NCBI GenBank assembly: GCA_000004985.1
Contig: GG738900.1
DNA length: 64,000 bases
Source of the DNA: Naegleria gruberi
Taxonomy: Eukaryota
Direction: 5' to 3' (one strand)
How positions within the stretch are numbered: the first letter of the stretch is position 1; each line of letters begins with the position of its first letter. The notes under the pieces were generated by a model that had not been told where the DNA came from, searched no databases, and worked only from the letters and a program-made list of their open reading frames with translations. A program made the position numbers and the translations under genes. Of this stretch, positions 37,652-63,095 are shown one piece after another.

Positions 37652-37721
37652 ATTATCGATAATAATAATTAAAATTTCATCCTTTTTAAAATAATCAAAT
37701 AATATTATTATTTAAGGGGTA

Positions 37722-37736
37722 CCTCTGGTCGTTACG
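37722..37736 (+). repeat. Left terminal inverted repeat of the transposon, including TTAA.
   Basis: TTAAGGGGTACCTCT; its reverse complement is at 40339-40353. Confidence 0.7.
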
Positions 37737-37857
37737 ACTGTTAGGAAACGCCAAAACTTTTAAATTTTTAATGTTTCTAAAAATAAAAAAAAATATCACA
37801 ACTTCCTAGGTGAATCATCATCATCATGGGCATCATCAATAAATTATTAATTTTAAT

Positions 37858-39690
37858 TCATTTTCCACCATCATCTCCTTCTTGTTCTTGTGTTAGAGTG
37901 ACACAACATTTGCACATCGGATCTCCATTACATTCTGCACATACCTCAACAGTACAATAGGGACACTTTTCTAAGTGAGTAAAGTAACTTCCGCAATTAG
38001 AACAACATTTCGTCTTCCTTGAGGTGGGAATAATGGAACCAACATAATGTGTTTTCTTCTTCTTGATGGGTATTGTGGATTGGGTAGTGTGTTGGTTTTG
38101 TTTGTTGTTACAGTTAATACATCTGCAAGCTGTAGAACACACCATCTTACTCTTCTTGCAAGCACAAGTATTTGAATCACACCCCAAACTGCAATCACAC
38201 GATAGTCCATAAGTGGCCTCGCTCTGGGGCATAGTTTGAGATAATTCCTTGAATTTCCTCTTGTTGTTAGCTTTTTGCTTTTTGGCTTCTTCAGTATGAT
38301 GATGTTTCAATACTTTAGATCTTTTTTCATTCAACTTATTCATATTGCTCTTCCATATTTCTTCTTCTGGAATATCCAATAAATCAAATAACCTTATAAT
38401 CCAAGTTTTACCTGCATTCTTATCCAAAACTGCTTGTTGAACACGAGTTCGGAAATATCTTGTCCCTTTGATATTCTTTGAGACATATTTAATTCTCATT
38501 CTGTGAAATGATTCACACGGATTTGATGAGTAATGGTGAAAAATTGCTTTTCCTTTCAGAACCAAGTTGTTTAACTTTTCTTTTAAATACTTAATCACAA
38601 ATGAATGGCGTTTTTCAGATAGCCATAGCTTATTGGGAGTTTTATGGTTTGGATCTTTAAACGGGCATCCCTGTGAGCAACCATCATGTTTGTTGCATAA
38701 ATGATTTGGAATGTTCTTTAACCAAGATTGTAATTCATCAAGAGAAGTTGCTTTAGAAATAAATTTGCTAACATATGCATTAATTCTAGGAGCCAATCTC
38801 TTCAATAATGCTTTGTCACCACGACGAAACAAACCTGATGGTTTCATTAATGATTTGTAGAGGTTTTTTCTAATATGATTAATATCCAAATAGGATGTTA
38901 CATTCGGATATTGATCAACAATATGTTTCAATGTACTACTATCCTCATCATGAATGACACATGAGATATTAATGTTATTGCTCTTCATATCTGAACAAAA
39001 CTGTTTCACTGACTCTCCTTCCATTGTCTTTGAACTTCCATGAAACATCCCAGTTTTGCAATTAATAATATCACTTGAATCTCTACAAGAACGACACTTC
39101 TCAATCACTTTGTAATAAACAATTTTAGAAGTAGTGGCATCAATAACAACAAGAGCACCATTTGATGATTCTCGCTTATGTCCCCATCCAAAGTCTATCA
39201 TTATTATTAATCCATTTTGTGATTTCTTTGCAGCTTCTTGCAAATCATCAGCTACCTGCTTTACGGAGAGTATTTCTATGGCAATAGAAAATGTTTCTAG
39301 GATATTGTAGAATGCAGATAATGAAAATGGTTTGATATTATTCAATAAAAGAAGTTGGCTGTATGTATCATAATTATGTCCAAGTATTAAACATGATAAA
39401 ACAAATCGGAAGGCTGTAAAATTGGGCATATTAGAAACTCCACCACTGTCCCATTTGATTTCCTTATGACAATTACTACATGTTATTGTTGCAATTAGTT
39501 GTCCACCAATAGTATGATGTGATGAAATTGTCAGTGATGATTTTGAGCAATTTGAGCAAGCAGCGTTCTCCAAAAGTAAGCTCAGATTGTTTGTATTACA
39601 TAAAAAAGCTTTTTTAAATTTAATTTTTTTTTTAGATTTTGATGACTTACAACAATCATTTGGTTGGAATTTTGCACTACTTCTCAACAC
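37858..39690 (-). CDS. Transposase main exon (610 aa). It has an N-terminal zinc ribbon, an IS1595/ISXO2-like DDE core and a C-terminal Cys-rich CxC-type domain.
   Basis: DDE-core blocks IIMIDFGWGHKRESSNGALVVIDATTSKIVYYKV and GMFHGSSKTMEGES. N-terminal CSNCS...CSNCHKEIKW. C-terminal SCDCSLGCDSNTCACKKSKMVCSTACRCINC and CSNCGSYFTHLEKCPYCTVEVCAECNG. Confidence 0.6.
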   Translation of the reverse strand: MLRSSAKFQPNDCCKSSKSKKKIKFKKAFLCNTNNLSLLLENAACSNCSKSSLTISSHHTIGGQLIATITCSNCHKEIKWDSGGVSNMPNFTAFRFVLSCLILGHNYDTYSQLLLLNNIKPFSLSAFYNILETFSIAIEILSVKQVADDLQEAAKKSQNGLIIMIDFGWGHKRESSNGALVVIDATTSKIVYYKVIEKCRSCRDSSDIINCKTGMFHGSSKTMEGESVKQFCSDMKSNNINISCVIHDEDSSTLKHIVDQYPNVTSYLDINHIRKNLYKSLMKPSGLFRRGDKALLKRLAPRINAYVSKFISKATSLDELQSWLKNIPNHLCNKHDGCSQGCPFKDPNHKTPNKLWLSEKRHSFVIKYLKEKLNNLVLKGKAIFHHYSSNPCESFHRMRIKYVSKNIKGTRYFRTRVQQAVLDKNAGKTWIIRLFDLLDIPEEEIWKSNMNKLNEKRSKVLKHHHTEEAKKQKANNKRKFKELSQTMPQSEATYGLSCDCSLGCDSNTCACKKSKMVCSTACRCINCNNKQNQHTTQSTIPIKKKKTHYVGSIIPTSRKTKCCSNCGSYFTHLEKCPYCTVEVCAECNGDPMCKCCVTLTQEQEGDDGGK

Positions 39691-39787
39691 AGTTTCATTA
39701 TTAATTATCTAATTAATCCACATACCAACAGGATATCAATTACATACGTTACAACATATCTCATAAGTAATATGTATTTACAATTAT

Positions 39788-40300
39788 TTAACTTACATCT
39801 ATCTGTCTTGCGTTCATTCTCTTCATCATGTTTTGACTATTGACACAGAAGTTATTAGAAAAACGAAGGTTGAACGAGAAACAATTTTGATAGTACAAAG
39901 AAGCATCACTCTTACTAATTACCATTCTCTCGAAGTTTTGTTTATTGGAATGTCTTTCTAAACAGCAATCACAAAACTGAGACAGGTCTACTTTGCTCAT
40001 ATCATACTAACACACACATGAAAATATGATCATTAGCATTCAGTAATAGGACATTCATGAAGAGGGTTAGTACAAGGAATGTAAATACCTACACAACAAT
40101 GGCCAGTTATAAACTTATTACGGGATGACAAAACATTATAACAATCCAAGCACACTTGATCATTCTTCACTAATCGGTGAGATTTTAGAATATATTGAAA
40201 TTGCTCCACATCATGATGACTAATAGTTTTATATTGTTTTCCGAACCAAGAAGAACCACACAATGAGCACTGCTTCTGTGATGATGAGATCATGATATTT
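39788..40300 (-). CDS. Probable 5' exons of the transposase gene (two ORFs, 40033..40300 and 39788..40000). They encode a Cys/His zinc-finger-like N-terminus and start at MISSSQKQCSLCG.
   Basis: ATG at about 40298-40300 just inside the right TIR. C-x2-C ... C-x2-C spacing. GTATTT and GTAAG-like donors precede the main exon. The exact splicing was not resolved. Confidence 0.4.
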
Positions 40301-40338
40301 ATTTTTTTGAAAAATGTCAAGAAATTTGATTGGCGGGA

Positions 40339-40353
40339 AGAGGTACCCCTTAA
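40339..40353 (-). repeat. Right terminal inverted repeat of the transposon, including TTAA.
   Basis: AGAGGTACCCCTTAA is the reverse complement of the left TIR, 15/15 identical. Confidence 0.7.
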
Positions 40354-51626: not shown

Positions 51627-53619
51627 TATTTACAGGTTGATGTGTTTGTTATTTTTTTTGTGGTTTTTAAATCTCTTGATATCAAACATAAAAACGCGGT
51701 ATAAAGTTAAAAATAGATTCTTATAGATGTGAAAATAGCTCACAATCGAAAGGATGAACAAAGCTTATTACAAAAGTGGAAGTGAAAGTGGTATTTATCA
51801 TGAATTTTATCACAGAAATCACTCTTGAAACATGAATTGTACTAGAATGTTCGAATTGATCAATTTAAGGTGGCACTGTAGCTCGCAATAAAAGACGAAG
51901 TAAACTGTTAATGTTTGAGAAGCTCTCCCACGGAATGCTACCACTCTGGAGATACAATTCGAAGAGAGTATATCCTATCAGATGTATATATTACAATCCT
52001 GCATTACATTTCTTTACAAATCGCTAGATATTGAATAAATAATAAAATCCTCTGTTGATCGAACTTGTAATCAGAAATGTGACGGTAAAAAAATTAAAGT
52101 TTCAACCCTCTTGCACGCAACAGCAACAAAATAAAACCCAGAGAAGAACAACATATGTTCTAGAGATGTTGTTCTATTTGTTCCTGCATTACATTGTTGT
52201 GATGTTGTTATGCGCCAATATTAATCACACAGTAGCCATTCCAATTTTAATTCTTGGCAGTGAAGGTCCATTCCAATTTTCACCACTTGCCTTTTTTGAA
52301 AAATTAAAGGACTTGGAAATATTTCTTAACAATATTGGGTCAACATCAGGTATATCATGCCTGTGTTGATTCTTGGTGTAATTTCACATCTATTAACTCC
52401 AAGAATTTCACCACATCATCTCATCATCATTTAAATAATATTATTAATAGTAATTTTTGGAATTCAATCCTTCATCATGATTTGGCAATAATTTTATTAT
52501 TTGGAAAAATTCAAGTTGGTACATCATCATCGGAACAACTACCAACCATCATTGTTATTTATCATCATTATAATAGTAATATTTGTGGAAATAAATCTGA
52601 TAATAGTATTATTTTAGTGAAATATTTTCACTAAAATCATCATCACTGCCAGATTTATATGATAATTTGGAAAACTTTCAATCTAGTATTGTTCAGCATG
52701 GTCGATTCCATCAGGTAAAATCACTTCCGAACGTTTTCCTATTGTTTATCATGATGATAGGTACATGTATATTTTCAACATGTACATGGACCATATCTCA
52801 ACATGTACTTCACCAACTTGGAAAATGTCTTTCATCACTACTATTCAAATACATAATAAACAATATATTTATCAGATTTTCATCATTTTGTGTTTTTGCC
52901 AACTTCGGGTTATTCATGGTCCCAATCATGATTCATGCCAAAAGTACAGTCAATCTTCTTGAAACATTAATAAACTTTTATTAGTACAATATTGTAGATG
53001 TACCATATCAATTATTTCGTCTTGTTTCGTTGAAATCATGAAGGGTTTGGAAACGTGTTGTTTTGATTTGTTTCTTCTGTGGCTCCATGGTCTTTATGAT
53101 CTGATATTGGGTTATTAAGCGCCGTTTGGGTATTTTGTTGGTTTTTTTAGTAAAGTTTTAAAAAAAGTATATAGTTCTTATCTAGTTATCGAGTTGTGGT
53201 GTAAATGTGTTGTTTTCAAGCTATTCGAAAGTAGTAACGATTTCGATATTCCGTTACTTTGCGTCACTTTGCGGACGGACTTACATTCAATCAATTTGGT
53301 TGTCATTCATATTGATGCGTAGAATTTTTGAGAGTATTTTTGAATGTACGTTATTTTTATCTACGCATGAATGAAAAGTACAACAATGATCAAGAGGAAT
53401 TGAGTCATGAGTATGATACTTTCTCAGATTGTTCTACGCATCAAGAGTATTCGATTCAGGATTCTATTCATATATGATATTTGTAATACATATATTGAAT
53501 TGGATGAGATGGAGTGCCATCTTGTTTTAAAAGTTGAGTCGACATTAAGGTATTCAGTAAATTGATACCACATGACTAATTAGAGTGATTATATGTCATT
53601 ATATCAATTTCTTTGAAAA

Positions 53620-54105: not shown

Positions 54106-57004
54106 NNNNNNNNNNNNNNNNNNNNNNNNNNNNNNNNNNNNNNNNNNNNNNNNNNNNNNNNNNNNNNNNNNNNNNNNNNNNNNNNNNNNNNNNNNNNNNN
54201 NNNNNNNNNNNNNNNNNNNNNNNNNNNNNNNNNNNNNNNNNNNNNNNNNNNNNNNNNNNNNNNNNNNNNNNNNNNNNNNNNNNNNNNNNNNNNNNNNNNN
54301 NNNNNNNNNNNNNNNNNNNNNNNNNNNNNNNNNNNNNNNNNNNNNNNNNNNNNNNNNNNNNNNNNNNNNNNNNNNNNNNNNNNNNNNNNNNNNNNNNNNN
54401 NNNNNNNNNNNNNNNNNNNNNNNNNNNNNNNNNNNNNNNNNNNNNNNNNNNNNNNNNNNNNNNNNNNNNNNNNNNNNNNNNNNNNNNNNNNNNNNNNNNN
54501 NNNNNNNNNNNNNNNNNNNNNNNNNNNNNNNNNNNNNNNNNNNNNNNNNNNNNNNNNNNNNNNNNNNNNNNNNNNNNNNNNNNNNNNNNNNNNNNNNNNN
54601 NNNNNNNNNNNNNNNNNNNNNNNNNNNNNNNNNNNNNNNNNNNNNNNNNNNNNNNNNNNNNNNNNNNNNNNNNNNNNNNNNNNNNNNNNNNNNNNNNNNN
54701 NNNNNNNNNNNNNNNNNNNNNNNNNNNNNNNNNNNNNNNNNNNNNNNNNNNNNNNNNNNNNNNNNNNNNNNNNNNNNNNNNNNNNNNNNNNNNNNNNNNN
54801 NNNNNNNNNNNNNNNNNNNNNNNNNNNNNNNNNNNNNNNNNNNNNNNNNNNNNNNNNNNNNNNNNNNNNNNNNNNNNNNNNNNNNNNNNNNNNNNNNNNN
54901 NNNNNNNNNNNNNNNNNNNNNNNNNNNNNNNNNNNNNNNNNNNNNNNNNNNNNNNNNNNNNNNNNNNNNNNNNNNNNNNNNNNNNNNNNNNNNNNNNNNN
55001 NNNNNNNNNNNNNNNNNNNNNNNNNNNNNNNNNNNNNNNNNNNNNNNNNNNNNNNNNNNNNNNNNNNNNNNNNNNNNNNNNNNNNNNNNNNNNNNNNNNN
55101 NNNNNNNNNNNNNNNNNNNNNNNNNNNNNNNNNNNNNNNNNNNNNNNNNNNNNNNNNNNNNNNNNNNNNNNNNNNNNNNNNNNNNNNNNNNNNNNNNNNN
55201 NNNNNNNNNNNNNNNNNNNNNNNNNNNNNNNNNNNNNNNNNNNNNNNNNNNNNNNNNNNNNNNNNNNNNNNNNNNNNNNNNNNNNNNNNNNNNNNNNNNN
55301 NNNNNNNNNNNNNNNNNNNNNNNNNNNNNNNNNNNNNNNNNNNNNNNNNNNNNNNNNNNNNNNNNNNNNNNNNNNNNNNNNNNNNNNNNNNNNNNNNNNN
55401 NNNNNNNNNNNNNNNNNNNNNNNNNNNNNNNNNNNNNNNNNNNNNNNNNNNNNNNNNNNNNNNNNNNNNNNNNNNNNNNNNNNNNNNNNNNNNNNNNNNN
55501 NNNNNNNNNNNNNNNNNNNNNNNNNNNNNNNNNNNNNNNNNNNNNNNNNNNNNNNNNNNNNNNNNNNNNNNNNNNNNNNNNNNNNNNNNNNNNNNNNNNN
55601 NNNNNNNNNNNNNNNNNNNNNNNNNNNNNNNNNNNNNNNNNNNNNNNNNNNNNNNNNNNNNNNNNNNNNNNNNNNNNNNNNNNNNNNNNNNNNNNNNNNN
55701 NNNNNNNNNNNNNNNNNNNNNNNNNNNNNNNNNNNNNNNNNNNNNNNNNNNNNNNNNNNNNNNNNNNNNNNNNNNNNNNNNNNNNNNNNNNNNNNNNNNN
55801 NNNNNNNNNNNNNNNNNNNNNNNNNNNNNNNNNNNNNNNNNNNNNNNNNNNNNNNNNNNNNNNNNNNNNNNNNNNNNNNNNNNNNNNNNNNNNNNNNNNN
55901 NNNNNNNNNNNNNNNNNNNNNNNNNNNNNNNNNNNNNNNNNNNNNNNNNNNNNNNNNNNNNNNNNNNNNNNNNNNNNNNNNNNNNNNNNNNNNNNNNNNN
56001 NNNNNNNNNNNNNNNNNNNNNNNNNNNNNNNNNNNNNNNNNNNNNNNNNNNNNNNNNNNNNNNNNNNNNNNNNNNNNNNNNNNNNNNNNNNNNNNNNNNN
56101 NNNNNNNNNNNNNNNNNNNNNNNNNNNNNNNNNNNNNNNNNNNNNNNNNNNNNNNNNNNNNNNNNNNNNNNNNNNNNNNNNNNNNNNNNNNNNNNNNNNN
56201 NNNNNNNNNNNNNNNNNNNNNNNNNNNNNNNNNNNNNNNNNNNNNNNNNNNNNNNNNNNNNNNNNNNNNNNNNNNNNNNNNNNNNNNNNNNNNNNNNNNN
56301 NNNNNNNNNNNNNNNNNNNNNNNNNNNNNNNNNNNNNNNNNNNNNNNNNNNNNNNNNNNNNNNNNNNNNNNNNNNNNNNNNNNNNNNNNNNNNNNNNNNN
56401 NNNNNNNNNNNNNNNNNNNNNNNNNNNNNNNNNNNNNNNNNNNNNNNNNNNNNNNNNNNNNNNNNNNNNNNNNNNNNNNNNNNNNNNNNNNNNNNNNNNN
56501 NNNNNNNNNNNNNNNNNNNNNNNNNNNNNNNNNNNNNNNNNNNNNNNNNNNNNNNNNNNNNNNNNNNNNNNNNNNNNNNNNNNNNNNNNNNNNNNNNNNN
56601 NNNNNNNNNNNNNNNNNNNNNNNNNNNNNNNNNNNNNNNNNNNNNNNNNNNNNNNNNNNNNNNNNNNNNNNNNNNNNNNNNNNNNNNNNNNNNNNNNNNN
56701 NNNNNNNNNNNNNNNNNNNNNNNNNNNNNNNNNNNNNNNNNNNNNNNNNNNNNNNNNNNNNNNNNNNNNNNNNNNNNNNNNNNNNNNNNNNNNNNNNNNN
56801 NNNNNNNNNNNNNNNNNNNNNNNNNNNNNNNNNNNNNNNNNNNNNNNNNNNNNNNNNNNNNNNNNNNNNNNNNNNNNNNNNNNNNNNNNNNNNNNNNNNN
56901 NNNNNNNNNNNNNNNNNNNNNNNNNNNNNNNNNNNNNNNNNNNNNNNNNNNNNNNNNNNNNNNNNNNNNNNNNNNNNNNNNNNNNNNNNNNNNNNNNNNN
57001 NNNN
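54106..57004. other. Assembly gap (N run, 2899 nt).
   Basis: Continuous N. The ORFs translated across it are artifacts. Confidence 0.95.
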
Positions 57005-57915: not shown

Positions 57916-59703
57916 TGTGGAACACGATATTATCATTTATTATGAGATTGGTAATTTTCCTATAGTATCTTCCTTAATTATCTTAATTGACCAAATTAGG
58001 TCAAGGAGAGATTTCAAAACATAAAATAAATTATATTTTCGAGATGTAGTAATGATTTCCAATCGATTGATATGTATTTTATAGATTGAGGATGTGGTTC
58101 TCTATATTCAAGATTTCCTCCTGATCTTCCCAACTCAACCTTGATATTTCACCCTTTACCTCCCGAATGGCGGTTTTTCCACCCCTCAGTTTTAGCCTTC
58201 AGTCAGAATAAAAAACACNNNNNNNNNNNNNNNNNNNNNNNNNNNNNNNNNNNNNNNNNNNNNNNNNNCATCTACTACTAACAACAACTAGTGAATGACC
58301 ACTTGACGAGTTGAATGAACAATGTCAACCACTAATCCATCTACTACTACTAACAACAACTATTGAACAAGTTTCTAATCAACATGATTGTAATGTGAGA
58401 GGTTGGAATGTACTACTTACATTGACAATAATTCAATATAGTTATAGTATTCTACAATAGAGTTTGTCTATTTACAATAGAACTATTACAAAGCTTATGA
58501 AATCCTTACTTGTAATTCAATCTGCTAAGGTTCGATTGGGTTGATAAATGATACTAGTTACTCGGATTGAAAGTATTATTACAAACAATCATAATAGAGA
58601 TGAATCTCACTCATTCAATATTGAGTTAGAGTTTCCAATTGTTCCTACAATAGAGAGATTTTATACCAATAGAGAGAGGATTAAACATCATGATCAATAT
58701 TATAACATACCCAACATACACAGGCTTTAATCTCTTCAATGAATCCAACTAGGGTTTTTATAGGATTATTCATCAATACTACTACTACTACTACCTACTT
58801 ACCTTAAACAATAACCCACAATAATAATGGACAAGTGAAAGTGTAACATTAGCAAACTAATGAAATTGTAACAATATAACCTACATTGTGGATGAATCAT
58901 GTTAGTGTATATATTCATATTGTTTAAATTGATGGACTCAAGATATTAATCATGTTAGTAATACGATTCCTACTAATACTTACTATTGTAGAGTAGTTAC
59001 ATGAAGTAACCTATGATCATCTAACCTATTGATAATGATGGAAATACAGAGAGATACCAATCAATCATAAAGAGTTGAAATAATTACTTACTGAAGAGTT
59101 GTTCCTTTGATTATTCGAGTACAACAATGACTTCCGAAGGAGGAATGTGAAAGCCTTTGATGGTTGAACTTAGTGTAGTGGAGAAATAGGATGATTATTA
59201 ATTACTAACACAGCACTTACCTGAGATGAATCGATTCGTGAGAAGATCTATTCAGTTGTGATTTTACTTTGAATTGGCTGATCGTCATTAGGCTTGATAC
59301 AGTCCTTGAATATTTAAAAGCGAGTTGATGAATGAGTACAAAGAAGTATTACTACAACACTTACCAAAACTAATTCCTAAATGATTAATGGATTGGTAAG
59401 GAGGAAGAGCTTTTCTTAAATTATAAAATCATTGCAACAACTTACTTGATTTCTTTCACATGATAAATCCTCTTCCTACCTCTTCCCACTCACAATCAGG
59501 CTAGTTATCATTAATATCCAAATAAACTACTACTTACTAGAAGAGTTTCAAATAAAGCTTTAATAGGGTTTAAATTGAAATTAACAATCAATAAACTTAT
59601 TAAGCAACCACTTGTTGTATGATGAATTATTTCTTGATGAAAACTGTAAAGATGGGTAGATAATGGTAGAGGTATTTTTTATTAATATACAAGAGGAATT
59701 ATC

Positions 59704-62700
59704 NNNNNNNNNNNNNNNNNNNNNNNNNNNNNNNNNNNNNNNNNNNNNNNNNNNNNNNNNNNNNNNNNNNNNNNNNNNNNNNNNNNNNNNNNNNNNNNNN
59801 NNNNNNNNNNNNNNNNNNNNNNNNNNNNNNNNNNNNNNNNNNNNNNNNNNNNNNNNNNNNNNNNNNNNNNNNNNNNNNNNNNNNNNNNNNNNNNNNNNNN
59901 NNNNNNNNNNNNNNNNNNNNNNNNNNNNNNNNNNNNNNNNNNNNNNNNNNNNNNNNNNNNNNNNNNNNNNNNNNNNNNNNNNNNNNNNNNNNNNNNNNNN
60001 NNNNNNNNNNNNNNNNNNNNNNNNNNNNNNNNNNNNNNNNNNNNNNNNNNNNNNNNNNNNNNNNNNNNNNNNNNNNNNNNNNNNNNNNNNNNNNNNNNNN
60101 NNNNNNNNNNNNNNNNNNNNNNNNNNNNNNNNNNNNNNNNNNNNNNNNNNNNNNNNNNNNNNNNNNNNNNNNNNNNNNNNNNNNNNNNNNNNNNNNNNNN
60201 NNNNNNNNNNNNNNNNNNNNNNNNNNNNNNNNNNNNNNNNNNNNNNNNNNNNNNNNNNNNNNNNNNNNNNNNNNNNNNNNNNNNNNNNNNNNNNNNNNNN
60301 NNNNNNNNNNNNNNNNNNNNNNNNNNNNNNNNNNNNNNNNNNNNNNNNNNNNNNNNNNNNNNNNNNNNNNNNNNNNNNNNNNNNNNNNNNNNNNNNNNNN
60401 NNNNNNNNNNNNNNNNNNNNNNNNNNNNNNNNNNNNNNNNNNNNNNNNNNNNNNNNNNNNNNNNNNNNNNNNNNNNNNNNNNNNNNNNNNNNNNNNNNNN
60501 NNNNNNNNNNNNNNNNNNNNNNNNNNNNNNNNNNNNNNNNNNNNNNNNNNNNNNNNNNNNNNNNNNNNNNNNNNNNNNNNNNNNNNNNNNNNNNNNNNNN
60601 NNNNNNNNNNNNNNNNNNNNNNNNNNNNNNNNNNNNNNNNNNNNNNNNNNNNNNNNNNNNNNNNNNNNNNNNNNNNNNNNNNNNNNNNNNNNNNNNNNNN
60701 NNNNNNNNNNNNNNNNNNNNNNNNNNNNNNNNNNNNNNNNNNNNNNNNNNNNNNNNNNNNNNNNNNNNNNNNNNNNNNNNNNNNNNNNNNNNNNNNNNNN
60801 NNNNNNNNNNNNNNNNNNNNNNNNNNNNNNNNNNNNNNNNNNNNNNNNNNNNNNNNNNNNNNNNNNNNNNNNNNNNNNNNNNNNNNNNNNNNNNNNNNNN
60901 NNNNNNNNNNNNNNNNNNNNNNNNNNNNNNNNNNNNNNNNNNNNNNNNNNNNNNNNNNNNNNNNNNNNNNNNNNNNNNNNNNNNNNNNNNNNNNNNNNNN
61001 NNNNNNNNNNNNNNNNNNNNNNNNNNNNNNNNNNNNNNNNNNNNNNNNNNNNNNNNNNNNNNNNNNNNNNNNNNNNNNNNNNNNNNNNNNNNNNNNNNNN
61101 NNNNNNNNNNNNNNNNNNNNNNNNNNNNNNNNNNNNNNNNNNNNNNNNNNNNNNNNNNNNNNNNNNNNNNNNNNNNNNNNNNNNNNNNNNNNNNNNNNNN
61201 NNNNNNNNNNNNNNNNNNNNNNNNNNNNNNNNNNNNNNNNNNNNNNNNNNNNNNNNNNNNNNNNNNNNNNNNNNNNNNNNNNNNNNNNNNNNNNNNNNNN
61301 NNNNNNNNNNNNNNNNNNNNNNNNNNNNNNNNNNNNNNNNNNNNNNNNNNNNNNNNNNNNNNNNNNNNNNNNNNNNNNNNNNNNNNNNNNNNNNNNNNNN
61401 NNNNNNNNNNNNNNNNNNNNNNNNNNNNNNNNNNNNNNNNNNNNNNNNNNNNNNNNNNNNNNNNNNNNNNNNNNNNNNNNNNNNNNNNNNNNNNNNNNNN
61501 NNNNNNNNNNNNNNNNNNNNNNNNNNNNNNNNNNNNNNNNNNNNNNNNNNNNNNNNNNNNNNNNNNNNNNNNNNNNNNNNNNNNNNNNNNNNNNNNNNNN
61601 NNNNNNNNNNNNNNNNNNNNNNNNNNNNNNNNNNNNNNNNNNNNNNNNNNNNNNNNNNNNNNNNNNNNNNNNNNNNNNNNNNNNNNNNNNNNNNNNNNNN
61701 NNNNNNNNNNNNNNNNNNNNNNNNNNNNNNNNNNNNNNNNNNNNNNNNNNNNNNNNNNNNNNNNNNNNNNNNNNNNNNNNNNNNNNNNNNNNNNNNNNNN
61801 NNNNNNNNNNNNNNNNNNNNNNNNNNNNNNNNNNNNNNNNNNNNNNNNNNNNNNNNNNNNNNNNNNNNNNNNNNNNNNNNNNNNNNNNNNNNNNNNNNNN
61901 NNNNNNNNNNNNNNNNNNNNNNNNNNNNNNNNNNNNNNNNNNNNNNNNNNNNNNNNNNNNNNNNNNNNNNNNNNNNNNNNNNNNNNNNNNNNNNNNNNNN
62001 NNNNNNNNNNNNNNNNNNNNNNNNNNNNNNNNNNNNNNNNNNNNNNNNNNNNNNNNNNNNNNNNNNNNNNNNNNNNNNNNNNNNNNNNNNNNNNNNNNNN
62101 NNNNNNNNNNNNNNNNNNNNNNNNNNNNNNNNNNNNNNNNNNNNNNNNNNNNNNNNNNNNNNNNNNNNNNNNNNNNNNNNNNNNNNNNNNNNNNNNNNNN
62201 NNNNNNNNNNNNNNNNNNNNNNNNNNNNNNNNNNNNNNNNNNNNNNNNNNNNNNNNNNNNNNNNNNNNNNNNNNNNNNNNNNNNNNNNNNNNNNNNNNNN
62301 NNNNNNNNNNNNNNNNNNNNNNNNNNNNNNNNNNNNNNNNNNNNNNNNNNNNNNNNNNNNNNNNNNNNNNNNNNNNNNNNNNNNNNNNNNNNNNNNNNNN
62401 NNNNNNNNNNNNNNNNNNNNNNNNNNNNNNNNNNNNNNNNNNNNNNNNNNNNNNNNNNNNNNNNNNNNNNNNNNNNNNNNNNNNNNNNNNNNNNNNNNNN
62501 NNNNNNNNNNNNNNNNNNNNNNNNNNNNNNNNNNNNNNNNNNNNNNNNNNNNNNNNNNNNNNNNNNNNNNNNNNNNNNNNNNNNNNNNNNNNNNNNNNNN
62601 NNNNNNNNNNNNNNNNNNNNNNNNNNNNNNNNNNNNNNNNNNNNNNNNNNNNNNNNNNNNNNNNNNNNNNNNNNNNNNNNNNNNNNNNNNNNNNNNNNNN

Positions 62701-63095
62701 NNNNNNNNNNNNNNNNNNNNNNNNNNNNNNNNNNNNNNNNNNNNNNNNNNNNNNNNNNNNNNNNNNNNNNNNNNNNNNNNNNNNNNNNNNNNNNNNNNNN
62801 NNNNNNNNNNNNNNNNNNNNNNNNNNNNNNNNNNNNNNNNNNNNNNNNNNNNNNNNNNNNNNNNNNNNNNNNNNNNNNNNNNNNNNNNNNNNNNNNNNNN
62901 NNNNNNNNNNNNNNNNNNNNNNNNNNNNNNNNNNNNNNNNNNNNNNNNNNNNNNNNNNNNNNNNNNNNNNNNNNNNNNNNNNNNNNNNNNNNNNNNNNNN
63001 NNNNNNNNNNNNNNNNNNNNNNNNNNNNNNNNNNNNNNNNNNNNNNNNNNNNNNNNNNNNNNNNNNNNNNNNNNNNNNNNNNNNNNNNNNNNNNN
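59704..63095. other. Assembly gap (N run, 3392 nt). A further 50-nt gap lies at 58219-58268.
   Basis: Continuous N. Confidence 0.95.

What the first reader, a model, noticed from the sequence alone, without database searches (positions are those of the whole stretch)
37722..40353. Apparently intact Kolobok/IS1595-like DNA transposon with TTAA ends and a KpnI-containing 15-bp TIR
A 2.63-kb element is bounded by perfect 15-bp inverted repeats, TTAAGGGGTACCTCT at 37722-37736 and AGAGGTACCCCTTAA at 40339-40353. It encodes an uninterrupted 610-aa transposase with an N-terminal zinc ribbon, an IS1595/ISXO2-like DDE core (IIMIDFGWGHK, VVIDATT) and a C-terminal CxC cysteine cluster, plus upstream Zn-finger exons. 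TTAA at both termini is the hallmark target-site duplication of Kolobok elements (piggyBac also gives TTAA, but its transposase is unrelated). The intact ORF and perfect TIRs suggest a recent, possibly active copy. Such elements are not among the classically described dictyostelid transposons (DIRS, TRE, Tdd, DDT), as far as I recall.
Basis: partly seen in the sequence, partly recalled or inferred. Interest (0 to 1): 0.7.

Follow-up and report, generated by a model that had tools for sequence, protein, structure and literature searches.

The report
Intact Kolobok DNA transposon in Naegleria
This is a structurally complete cut-and-paste DNA transposon of the already-known Kolobok superfamily in the amoeboflagellate Naegleria gruberi; it is an ordinary mobile element, not IS1595-like and not from a slime mould, and its only notable feature is that this copy looks undamaged.

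Summary
The element is real, but the left repeat arm is at 37712-37726, not 37722-37736, so it spans 37712-40353 (2,642 bp). The window is Naegleria gruberi, not a dictyostelid. The element reads TTAA|GGGGTACCTCT...AGAGGTACCCC|TTAA. It carries one minus-strand gene, which I model as three exons (753 aa); the 610-aa ORF is the last exon.

Kolobok is supported.
- A profile of 15 published Kolobok cores scores the protein at 97.5 bits (E 6e-26; shuffles -5.5 bits or lower). The best single matches are the Repbase families Kolobok_1/2_NaeGru, at only 26-30% identity.
- It has the D309-D391-E536 triad, a DINH (C/DxxH) motif and both Kolobok zinc fingers.
- Only TTAA is duplicated at the flanks, and the termini are 5'-GG..CC-3'.
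- Four relatives' elements have the same end architecture. One 71%-identical element shares the identical terminus in an unrelated flank.

No second copy was found in the window or among annotated proteins, so mobility is untested. Verdict: a new member of a known kind, of low to moderate interest.

The parts
37712..37715 (.). TTAA flanking the element end that lies 3' of the gene; inferred to be one copy of the target-site duplication
   Evidence: Only a 4-nt TTAA is shared between the two flanks; lengths 2-11 were tested. Kolobok makes TTAA duplications (PMC9587614).
37716..37726 (.). 11-nt terminal inverted repeat GGGGTACCTCT (element terminus 5'-GG)
   Evidence: Perfect complement of 40339-40349. 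The same terminus, ACCAGAGGTACCCC|TTAA, occurs in the 71%-identical relative L012.
37727..37857 (-). Subterminal non-coding region downstream of the stop codon (3' UTR and a likely transposase-binding region)
   Evidence: Conserved with L012 up to the TTAA, for example CATTAAAAATTTAAAAGTTTT. The binding role is inferred.
37858..39708 (-).
   Evidence: ORF; splice model. The annotated N. gruberi protein P0001 (523 aa) is 100% identical to its C-terminal 523 residues.
39469..39558 (-). Zinc ribbon, C-x2-C...C-x2-C (ORF residues 45-74)
   Evidence: Three beta strands in the AlphaFold model, pLDDT 62-90. The region aligns with P0004.
38512..39195 (-). DDE catalytic core: D309, D391, E536 (full-length numbering), with SSKTME, DINH (C/DxxH) and two internal zinc fingers (C342/C345/C354/H360 and H473/H478/C481/C485)
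38110..38199 (-). Nine-cysteine CXC cluster (tesmin/LIN-54-like spacing), probably a DNA-binding domain
   Evidence: All nine Cys are invariant in five subfamily members. The match to LIN-54 is weak (E 0.0085 single sequence, 0.13 profile).
37903..38007 (-). C-terminal cysteine-rich tail (CCSNCGSYFTHLEKCPYCTVEVCAECNGDPMCKCC)
   Evidence: Shared with P0002. Low model confidence. Function unknown.
39709..39796 (-). Intron 2 (88 nt, GTAAGT..TTAG)
   Evidence: Frame-preserving, and an in-frame stop lies immediately upstream of the acceptor.
39797..40006 (-). Exon 2 (70 codons, Cys-rich)
   Evidence: No homologue was found for this exon, so it is the least certain part of the model.
40007..40092 (-). 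Intron 1 (86 nt, GTAGGT..GTTAG)
40093..40293 (-). Exon 1 (67 codons from ATG 40293), C-x2-C-x35-C-x2-C zinc-finger-like module
   Evidence: Residues 9-60 match an ORF upstream of the P0003 gene in L002 (34% over 53 aa, E 1e-5 in a small database). No Pfam THAP hit.
40294..40338 (-). 5' subterminal region (45 nt; presumed promoter and 5' UTR)
   Evidence: Position only; role inferred.
40339..40349 (.). 11-nt terminal inverted repeat AGAGGTACCCC (terminus CC-3')
40350..40353 (.). TTAA flanking the other end; inferred second copy of the target-site duplication

Best explanation
This is an autonomous cut-and-paste DNA transposon of the Kolobok superfamily, resident in the Naegleria gruberi genome. 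It lies in the spacer between an RCC1-repeat gene and a HIT-like gene.

Shown:
- The element spans 37712-40353 and has 11-nt TIRs (5'-GGGGTACCTCT...AGAGGTACCCC-3') flanked on both sides by TTAA.
- Its single gene encodes a Kolobok-type DDE transposase whose conserved residues are essentially all intact.

Inferred mechanism:
- The zinc modules are the N-terminal C4 finger, the zinc ribbon, the CXC cluster and the C-terminal Cys tail. Together they bind the TIR and the conserved subterminal sequence.
- The RNase H-like core (D309/D391/E536, with two metal ions) cuts both ends.
- It then joins the 3'-OH ends to a TTAA target with a 4-nt stagger. Repair of that stagger duplicates TTAA.

The copy looks capable of activity, but whether it moves is not known.
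For: Organism: the ORF is 100% identical to a N. gruberi predicted protein on a 312-kb contig.

Family:
- The best single matches are Kolobok_1_NaeGru and Kolobok_2_NaeGru.
- The exhaustive HMMER search found 403 relatives. Forty of the top 54 hit PF20700.
- Eight of ten published Kolobok cores, including the founder Kolobok-1_XT, pass PF20700's threshold.
- Relatives include near matches to Kolobok_1_CGi (48%, E 9e-86), Kolobok_5_TrFo and KolobokE.

Residues: 22 of the 24 most conserved family columns are retained, including D, D, E, DxxH and both zinc fingers.

Ends:
- Only TTAA is duplicated at the flanks.
- Four relatives' elements show TTAA|GG..CC|TTAA: L001, L010, and two Pecten maximus copies more than 99% identical at unrelated sites.
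- L012 shares the identical terminus and then diverges completely after TTAA.
- The published Kolobok definition is a TTAA duplication, 5'-RR..YY-3' termini and a C/DxxH motif (PMC9587614).
Against: - No second copy was found in the 64-kb window or among predicted proteins. No empty site could be examined. So transposition, and the status of TTAA as a duplication rather than part of the repeat, rest on family behaviour for this particular copy.
- The protein itself falls below Pfam PF20700's reporting threshold. Membership rests on my profile of published cores and on relatives.
- The 15-nt repeat alone is not statistically unusual.
- As far as I know, no Kolobok transposase has been studied biochemically, so the mechanistic steps are by analogy.
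- Exon 2 has no detected homologue.
Confidence: 0.9

Rival explanations
1. It is an immobilised or domesticated single-copy Kolobok-derived gene. The host retains the transposase for some function and the element no longer moves.
For: Only one copy is detectable: none elsewhere in the window, and no second annotated protein with a similar core among 5.8 billion clusters. The ORF is intact and its GC content (0.33) equals the host's. Kolobok domestication is documented in Xenopus (title and abstract of PMC6004289).
Against: Both TIRs are perfect and still flanked by TTAA. Domesticated transposases usually lose their ends. The terminus and subterminal region are conserved with a 71%-identical element that sits in a different flank in another sample, which points to selection for transposition. 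Unannotated copies were not searchable.
Confidence: 0.1
2. It is an IS1595/Merlin/ISL2EU-type element.
For: No tool result supports it.
Against: There is no hit to DDE_Tnp_IS1595 or to NCBIfam IS1595 models at E<=10. None of 54 relatives hits it at E<=0.01, whereas 40 hit PF20700. Published classifications list Merlin and ISL2EU as separate superfamilies from Kolobok, and place Kolobok with hAT, P, MuDR and Dada through the C/DxxH motif, which is present here as DINH. The nearest fold is Mutator/IS256-type.
Confidence: 0.02
3. It is a Mutator-like element (MULE), as the Pfam name of PF20700 suggests.
For: Relatives hit Pfam 'Mutator-like transposase'. The best structural match is ISCth4, a bacterial Mutator/IS256-family transposase.
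Against: PF20700 also recognises published Kolobok cores, including the founder Kolobok-1_XT, so the Pfam name is a label for the same proteins. From my own knowledge, MULEs make duplications of about 8-11 bp; here only 4 nt (TTAA) match, in this element and in four relatives. The match to the Kolobok profile is full-length.
Confidence: 0.03
4. It is a piggyBac-type element, the other TTAA-specific superfamily.
For: TTAA flanks and a Cys-rich C-terminus, both of which piggyBac also has.
Confidence: 0.01

Closest known systems
Kolobok-1_NaeGru and Kolobok-2_NaeGru (Repbase Naegleria gruberi families; cores published in Data S5 of PMC9587614)
   Same: Same host species and same superfamily. They are the best single-sequence matches (phmmer 35.7 and 31.9 bits; blastp E 1e-15 and 2e-12). 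They share the D..SxxME..HDxDS..DxNH..H..C..NESxH motif series.
   Different: Only 26-30% identical over about 200 aa, so this is a separate family. The window's protein has a Cys/His insertion after the first D (C342-x2-C345...C354...H360) that both published NaeGru cores lack. I could not see their ends, N- or C-termini, or check whether Repbase holds further NaeGru families.
Unnamed protist/metagenome subfamily: P0002 (L012), P0003 (L002), P0004 (L001), P0005
   Same: The closest relatives (58%, 34%, 27% and 28% identity). They share the core, the CXC cluster and, for P0004, the zinc ribbon. L001 has a 12-nt TIR inside TTAA with GG..CC termini. L012 has the identical terminus ACCAGAGGTACCCC|TTAA.
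   Different: P0004 and P0005 carry an additional DEDDh (RNase_T) exonuclease domain downstream of the CXC cluster. The window's element has instead a short Cys-rich tail, shared with P0002. L001 also has a second 230-aa ORF on the opposite strand.
KolobokD lineage (DEDDh-exonuclease-bearing Kolobok of molluscs, arthropods and cnidarians; PMC9587614)
   Same: Same superfamily. The Pecten maximus relative P0062 (PF20700 plus RNase_T/Exu/PML_C) has TTAA|GG..CC|TTAA ends.
   Different: Much larger elements (about 9.5 kb) that carry an exonuclease domain. Only about 25% identical to the window's protein.
ISCth4 (IS256 / bacterial Mutator-family transposase; PDB 6XG8, 6XGW, 6XGX)
   Different: 11-13% sequence identity. 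It is a bacterial IS with no TTAA specificity that I know of. The resemblance is one of fold, not of family membership.
piggyBac
   Same: TTAA-specific integration and a Cys-rich C-terminal domain.

Membership tests
Kolobok superfamily | Transposase homologous to reported Kolobok families (the criterion used in PMC9587614) | tested here: met
Kolobok superfamily | DDD/E catalytic triad | tested here: met
   D309, D391 and E536 align to the triad columns and are invariant or nearly invariant in 54 relatives.
Kolobok superfamily | [quoted passage not shown] | tested here: met
   D412-I-N-H415 aligns with DPNH/DVWH of the published cores. H272 (ORF numbering) is invariant and D269 is at least 90% conserved.
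Kolobok superfamily | [quoted passage not shown] | tested here: met
   H473, H478, C481 and C485 in HLCNKHDGCSQGC. They are invariant in the subfamily alignment. Feature described in PMC9587614.
Kolobok superfamily | TTAA target-site duplication | tested here: inconclusive
   TTAA lies on both sides, and it is the only flank length from 2 to 11 nt that matches. Four relatives' elements have the same arrangement, including two Pecten copies at unrelated sites, and L012 diverges exactly after TTAA. TTAA is palindromic and no empty site was available, so duplication at this copy is inferred, not shown.
Kolobok superfamily | Termini 5'-RR ... YY-3' | tested here: met
   5'-GGGG...CCCC-3' inside the TTAAs. 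L001, L010 and the Pecten copies also have GG..CC termini.
IS1595 / Merlin / ISL2EU | Match to IS1595-type DDE transposase profiles | tested here: not met
   No hit in Pfam or NCBIfam at E<=10 for the protein. None of 54 relatives hits at E<=0.01.
piggyBac | piggyBac-type DDD transposase and piggyBac-type termini at TTAA | tested here: not met
MuDR / MULE | Long (about 8-11 bp) target-site duplication (from my own knowledge of the superfamily) | tested here: not met
   Flank comparison matches only at 4 nt. The same holds for L001, L010 and the Pecten copies.
MuDR / MULE | Phylogenetic placement within canonical MULE transposases | not tested
PF20700's name is 'Mutator-like', but it recognises published Kolobok cores.
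Active (autonomous, currently mobile) transposon | Multiple near-identical copies, insertion polymorphism, or demonstrated transposition | not testable with these tools
   The N. gruberi genome outside this window is not in any searchable DNA collection. Protein searches found no second annotated copy.

The most novel reading that the evidence does not exclude
This single, undamaged copy may be a currently active autonomous Kolobok element. It has perfect TIRs, an intact 753-aa transposase and a terminus conserved with a diverged relative. It may also represent a previously undescribed Kolobok lineage of Heterolobosea and other protists, defined by a CXC (Zn3Cys9-like) DNA-binding domain after the catalytic core and related to exonuclease-bearing forms. 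If it is active, it would be a compact (2.6 kb) candidate for the first experimentally tractable Kolobok transposition system, a TTAA-specific enzyme unrelated to piggyBac.
Probability: 0.25. Interest if true: 0.5.

Novelty: new member of a known kind. Interest (0 to 1): 0.27.

Why it matters
Mostly it is housekeeping. The result corrects the organism (Naegleria, not a dictyostelid), the coordinates and the family label (Kolobok yes, IS1595 no). It also shows that Pfam's 'Mutator-like transposase' PF20700 is in practice the Kolobok core, which helps anyone annotating such genes. The N. gruberi protein is currently only 'predicted protein', and its gene model appears to lack the N-terminal zinc-finger exons.

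The modest scientific value is in two points. As far as I know, no Kolobok transposase has been characterised biochemically, and a small, intact, TTAA-specific element with 11-nt TIRs would be a convenient starting point. The CXC-domain subfamily, with its exonuclease-bearing relatives, also adds a protist branch to the published picture of accessory domains in Kolobok.

Tried and rejected
- **Pfam and NCBIfam on the 610-aa ORF and the 753-aa spliced protein:** no family hit, including no IS1595, THAP, piggyBac or PF20700 hit. The family had to be established through relatives and published sequences.
- **Word-indexed protein search, run twice:** only the protein itself was found. The first run missed P0002, so it is not exhaustive for near relatives.
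- **The search for related loci with the 54-sequence alignment:** failed because no stretch was conserved enough. With a 4-sequence alignment it returned only 5 short metagenome loci, none with both ends.
- **TTAA-anchored TIR scan:** negative for L002-L007 and L011, which are fragments or elements whose ends lie off the contig.
- **Look-up of P0001's contig:** failed, not on record, so I could not obtain the scaffold accession or extra flanks.
- **tRNA-like flank in L012:** not confirmed by ARAGORN or Rfam, because the piece is too short.
- **CXC domain:** the profile search against PDB gave only a marginal LIN-54 hit (E 0.13), so I treat it as pattern-level evidence.
- **Subterminal repeats:** shared words between the two ends are low-complexity apart from CGCCAA. 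Not convincing.
- **Chance inverted repeat:** considered and rejected as an explanation for the whole feature. I kept the caveat that the repeat alone is unremarkable.
Full report
**1. Observation.**
- The region was read directly. The left arm is at 37712-37726, not 37722-37736. The right arm, 40339-40353, is as stated.
- The feature therefore spans 37712-40353 (2,642 bp). TTAA is its own reverse complement, so the repeat proper is 11 nt: TTAA|GGGGTACCTCT ... AGAGGTACCCC|TTAA. The KpnI site is simply part of that repeat.
- The 610-aa ORF (37858-39690, minus strand) and the quoted motifs are present.
- The repeat alone is weak evidence. The first 54 kb of the window contain 8 perfect 15-mer inverted pairs 1-6 kb apart. 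First-order Markov simulations give a mean of 1.6, and 32 of 40 simulations have at least one. The case rests on what the repeat brackets and on comparison with relatives.

**2. Source organism.** The ORF is 100% identical over 523 residues to a 'predicted protein' of Naegleria gruberi on a 312-kb contig. The window is about 33% G+C throughout and has assembly gaps after 54.1 kb.

**3. Gene model.**
- On the minus strand, an ATG at 40293 opens a 67-codon exon.
- Introns of 86 and 88 nt with GT..AG ends join it in frame to a 70-codon exon and then to the long ORF. In-frame stops inside both introns make read-through impossible.
- The product is 753 aa.
- Exon 1 carries a C-x2-C-x35-C-x2-C module. 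Its residues 9-60 match a small ORF upstream of the closest full-length relative's gene (34% over 53 aa), which supports that exon.
- Exon 2 has no detected homologue and is the weakest part of the model.
- The public annotation (523 aa) starts inside exon 3 and lacks all of this.

**4. What the protein is.**
- Curated libraries are silent on the protein itself. Pfam gives nothing even at E<=10, and NCBIfam gives only noise. There is no hit to IS1595, THAP or piggyBac models.
- An exhaustive HMMER search of 1.84 billion representatives found 403 relatives.
- Forty of the top 54 match Pfam PF20700, 'Mutator-like transposase'. None matches IS1595.
- To interpret that label I used the published Kolobok alignment (Data S5 of PMC9587614). 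It includes the Repbase families Kolobok_1_NaeGru and Kolobok_2_NaeGru.
- The best single matches are the two NaeGru families.
- Conversely, 8 of 10 published Kolobok cores, including the founder Kolobok-1_XT, pass PF20700's gathering threshold. Several of my retrieved relatives are close homologues of published Kolobok families, for example 48% identity and E 9e-86 to Kolobok_1_CGi. PF20700 and Repbase's Kolobok therefore describe the same proteins.

**5. Diagnostic residues (full-length numbering).**

| Feature | Residues |
|---|---|
| First catalytic D | D309 (IIMID) |
| SxxME motif | SSKTME |
| Second catalytic D | D391 (VIHDEDSS) |
| C/DxxH signature | D412-INH415 |
| Zinc finger before the last catalytic residue | H473/H478/C481/C485 |
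| Catalytic E | E536 (NPCESFH) |
| Second finger after the first D | C342/C345/C354/H360 |

- All of these are invariant or nearly invariant among 54 relatives. The window's copy keeps 22 of the 24 most conserved columns.
- PMC9587614 gives both zinc fingers and the C/DxxH motif as Kolobok features.

**6. Fold.**
- An AlphaFold model built on the 54-sequence alignment is confident through the core (pLDDT above 90 for 355 residues).
- This fits the published grouping of Kolobok with hAT, P, MuDR and Dada. It does not fit an IS1595 affinity.

**7. Ends and target site.**
- Only a 4-nt TTAA is common to the two flanks; lengths 2-11 were tested.
- Relatives give independent support:
  - L001 (encoding P0004) reads TTAA|GGAGCAATTTTA...TAAAATTGCTCC|TTAA.
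  - L010 (encoding P0022) has a perfect TTAA|GGGTGTAGTCC repeat around its gene.
  - Two Pecten maximus copies on different chromosomes are more than 99% identical over about 9.5 kb. Both are bounded by TTAA|GGACGTTG...CAACCCCC|TTAA with unrelated flanks.
- L012 is the most telling case. It encodes P0002 (58% aa and 71% nt identity, from an unrelated sequencing run). It shares the conserved subterminal block and the identical terminus ...ACCAGAGGTACCCC|TTAA, and it then diverges completely.
- The terminus is thus conserved while the genomic context differs, as expected of a mobile element's transposase-recognition end.
- All of this matches the literature definition of Kolobok: a TTAA duplication and 5'-RR..YY-3' termini.
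- No empty site could be examined, so duplication at this particular insertion is inferred.

**8. Context and copy number.**
- The element lies between the stop codon of an RCC1-repeat ORF (37651) and the start of a HIT-like ORF (40511). It interrupts neither.
- No other copy of the DNA, the TIR or the protein occurs in the window.
- A 47-codon ORF at 52953-53093 weakly resembles the first catalytic motif (17 bits).
- Two word-indexed searches of 5.8 billion protein clusters found only the protein itself.
- The rest of the N. gruberi genome was not searchable as DNA, so copy number and activity are open.

**9. Mechanism (inferred).** Zinc modules bind the 11-nt TIR and the subterminal block. 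These are the N-terminal C4 finger, the zinc ribbon at ORF residues 45-74, the nine-Cys CXC cluster and the Cys-rich tail. The DDE core excises the element and integrates it at TTAA with a 4-nt stagger. The CXC assignment is at pattern level only: all nine cysteines are invariant in five members, and the LIN-54 match is marginal (E 0.0085 single sequence, 0.13 profile).

**10. Comparison and novelty.**
- Kolobok is already recorded in Naegleria. This copy is only 26-30% identical to the two published NaeGru cores, and it has an extra Cys/His insertion that they lack. It is therefore a distinct family, though I could not check Repbase for further NaeGru entries.
- Its nearest relatives form a protist/metagenome subfamily with the CXC domain. 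Some of them also carry a DEDDh exonuclease, like the animal 'KolobokD' lineage.

**11. Verdict.** This is a new member of a known kind. The IS1595 label, the organism and one coordinate are wrong. Interest is low to moderate, and comes mainly from the element being a compact, intact candidate for a first functional study of a Kolobok transposase.

Noticed in passing
window 52953-53093 (-): A 47-codon ORF (RPWSHRRNKSKQHVSKPFMISTKQDEIIDMVHLQ...) matches the family profile over the first catalytic-motif region (17.3 bits, E 3e-5 among 494 window ORFs). No other piece was found nearby. It may be a decayed fragment of a second Kolobok-type element, about 1 kb before an assembly gap.
   Followed up: partly
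window 54106-57004, 58219-58268, 59704-63095: Runs of N (6,341 in total). The last 10 kb of the window is mostly assembly gap, so features there cannot be assessed.
   Followed up: no
window 14591/18077, 32486/36950, 36197/38569, 46715/52662, 47048/52292: Other perfect 15-16-mer inverted-repeat pairs 1-6 kb apart. There are somewhat more than Markov simulations give (8 observed 15-mers against a mean of 1.6 and a maximum of 5). I did not check whether any of them bounds another element.
   Followed up: no
L012 933-979: The flank just outside the related element's TTAA reads, on the reverse strand, like the 3' part of a tRNA gene (T-arm GGTTCGAGCCC plus an acceptor strand). ARAGORN and Rfam do not call it, because the contig ends inside it. 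If real, that copy sits about 20 nt from a tRNA gene.
   Followed up: partly
L001 3477-4169 (-): The related element of P0004 carries a second 230-aa ORF on the opposite strand, inside the TIRs, with no Pfam hit. It may be an accessory protein. The window's element has no counterpart.
   Followed up: no
window 37858-39429 (public annotation, P0001): The public N. gruberi gene model (523 aa, 'predicted protein', no Pfam domain) starts at an internal Met. It omits the zinc ribbon and the two upstream exons proposed here.
   Followed up: partly
P0075 (EukProt, Pharyngomonas kirbyi transcript): A complete transcript-derived ORF from another heterolobosean is the best match in my hit set to Kolobok_2_NaeGru (26% identity, E 2e-19). 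Kolobok transposases therefore seem to be expressed in a second lineage of Heterolobosea.
   Followed up: no
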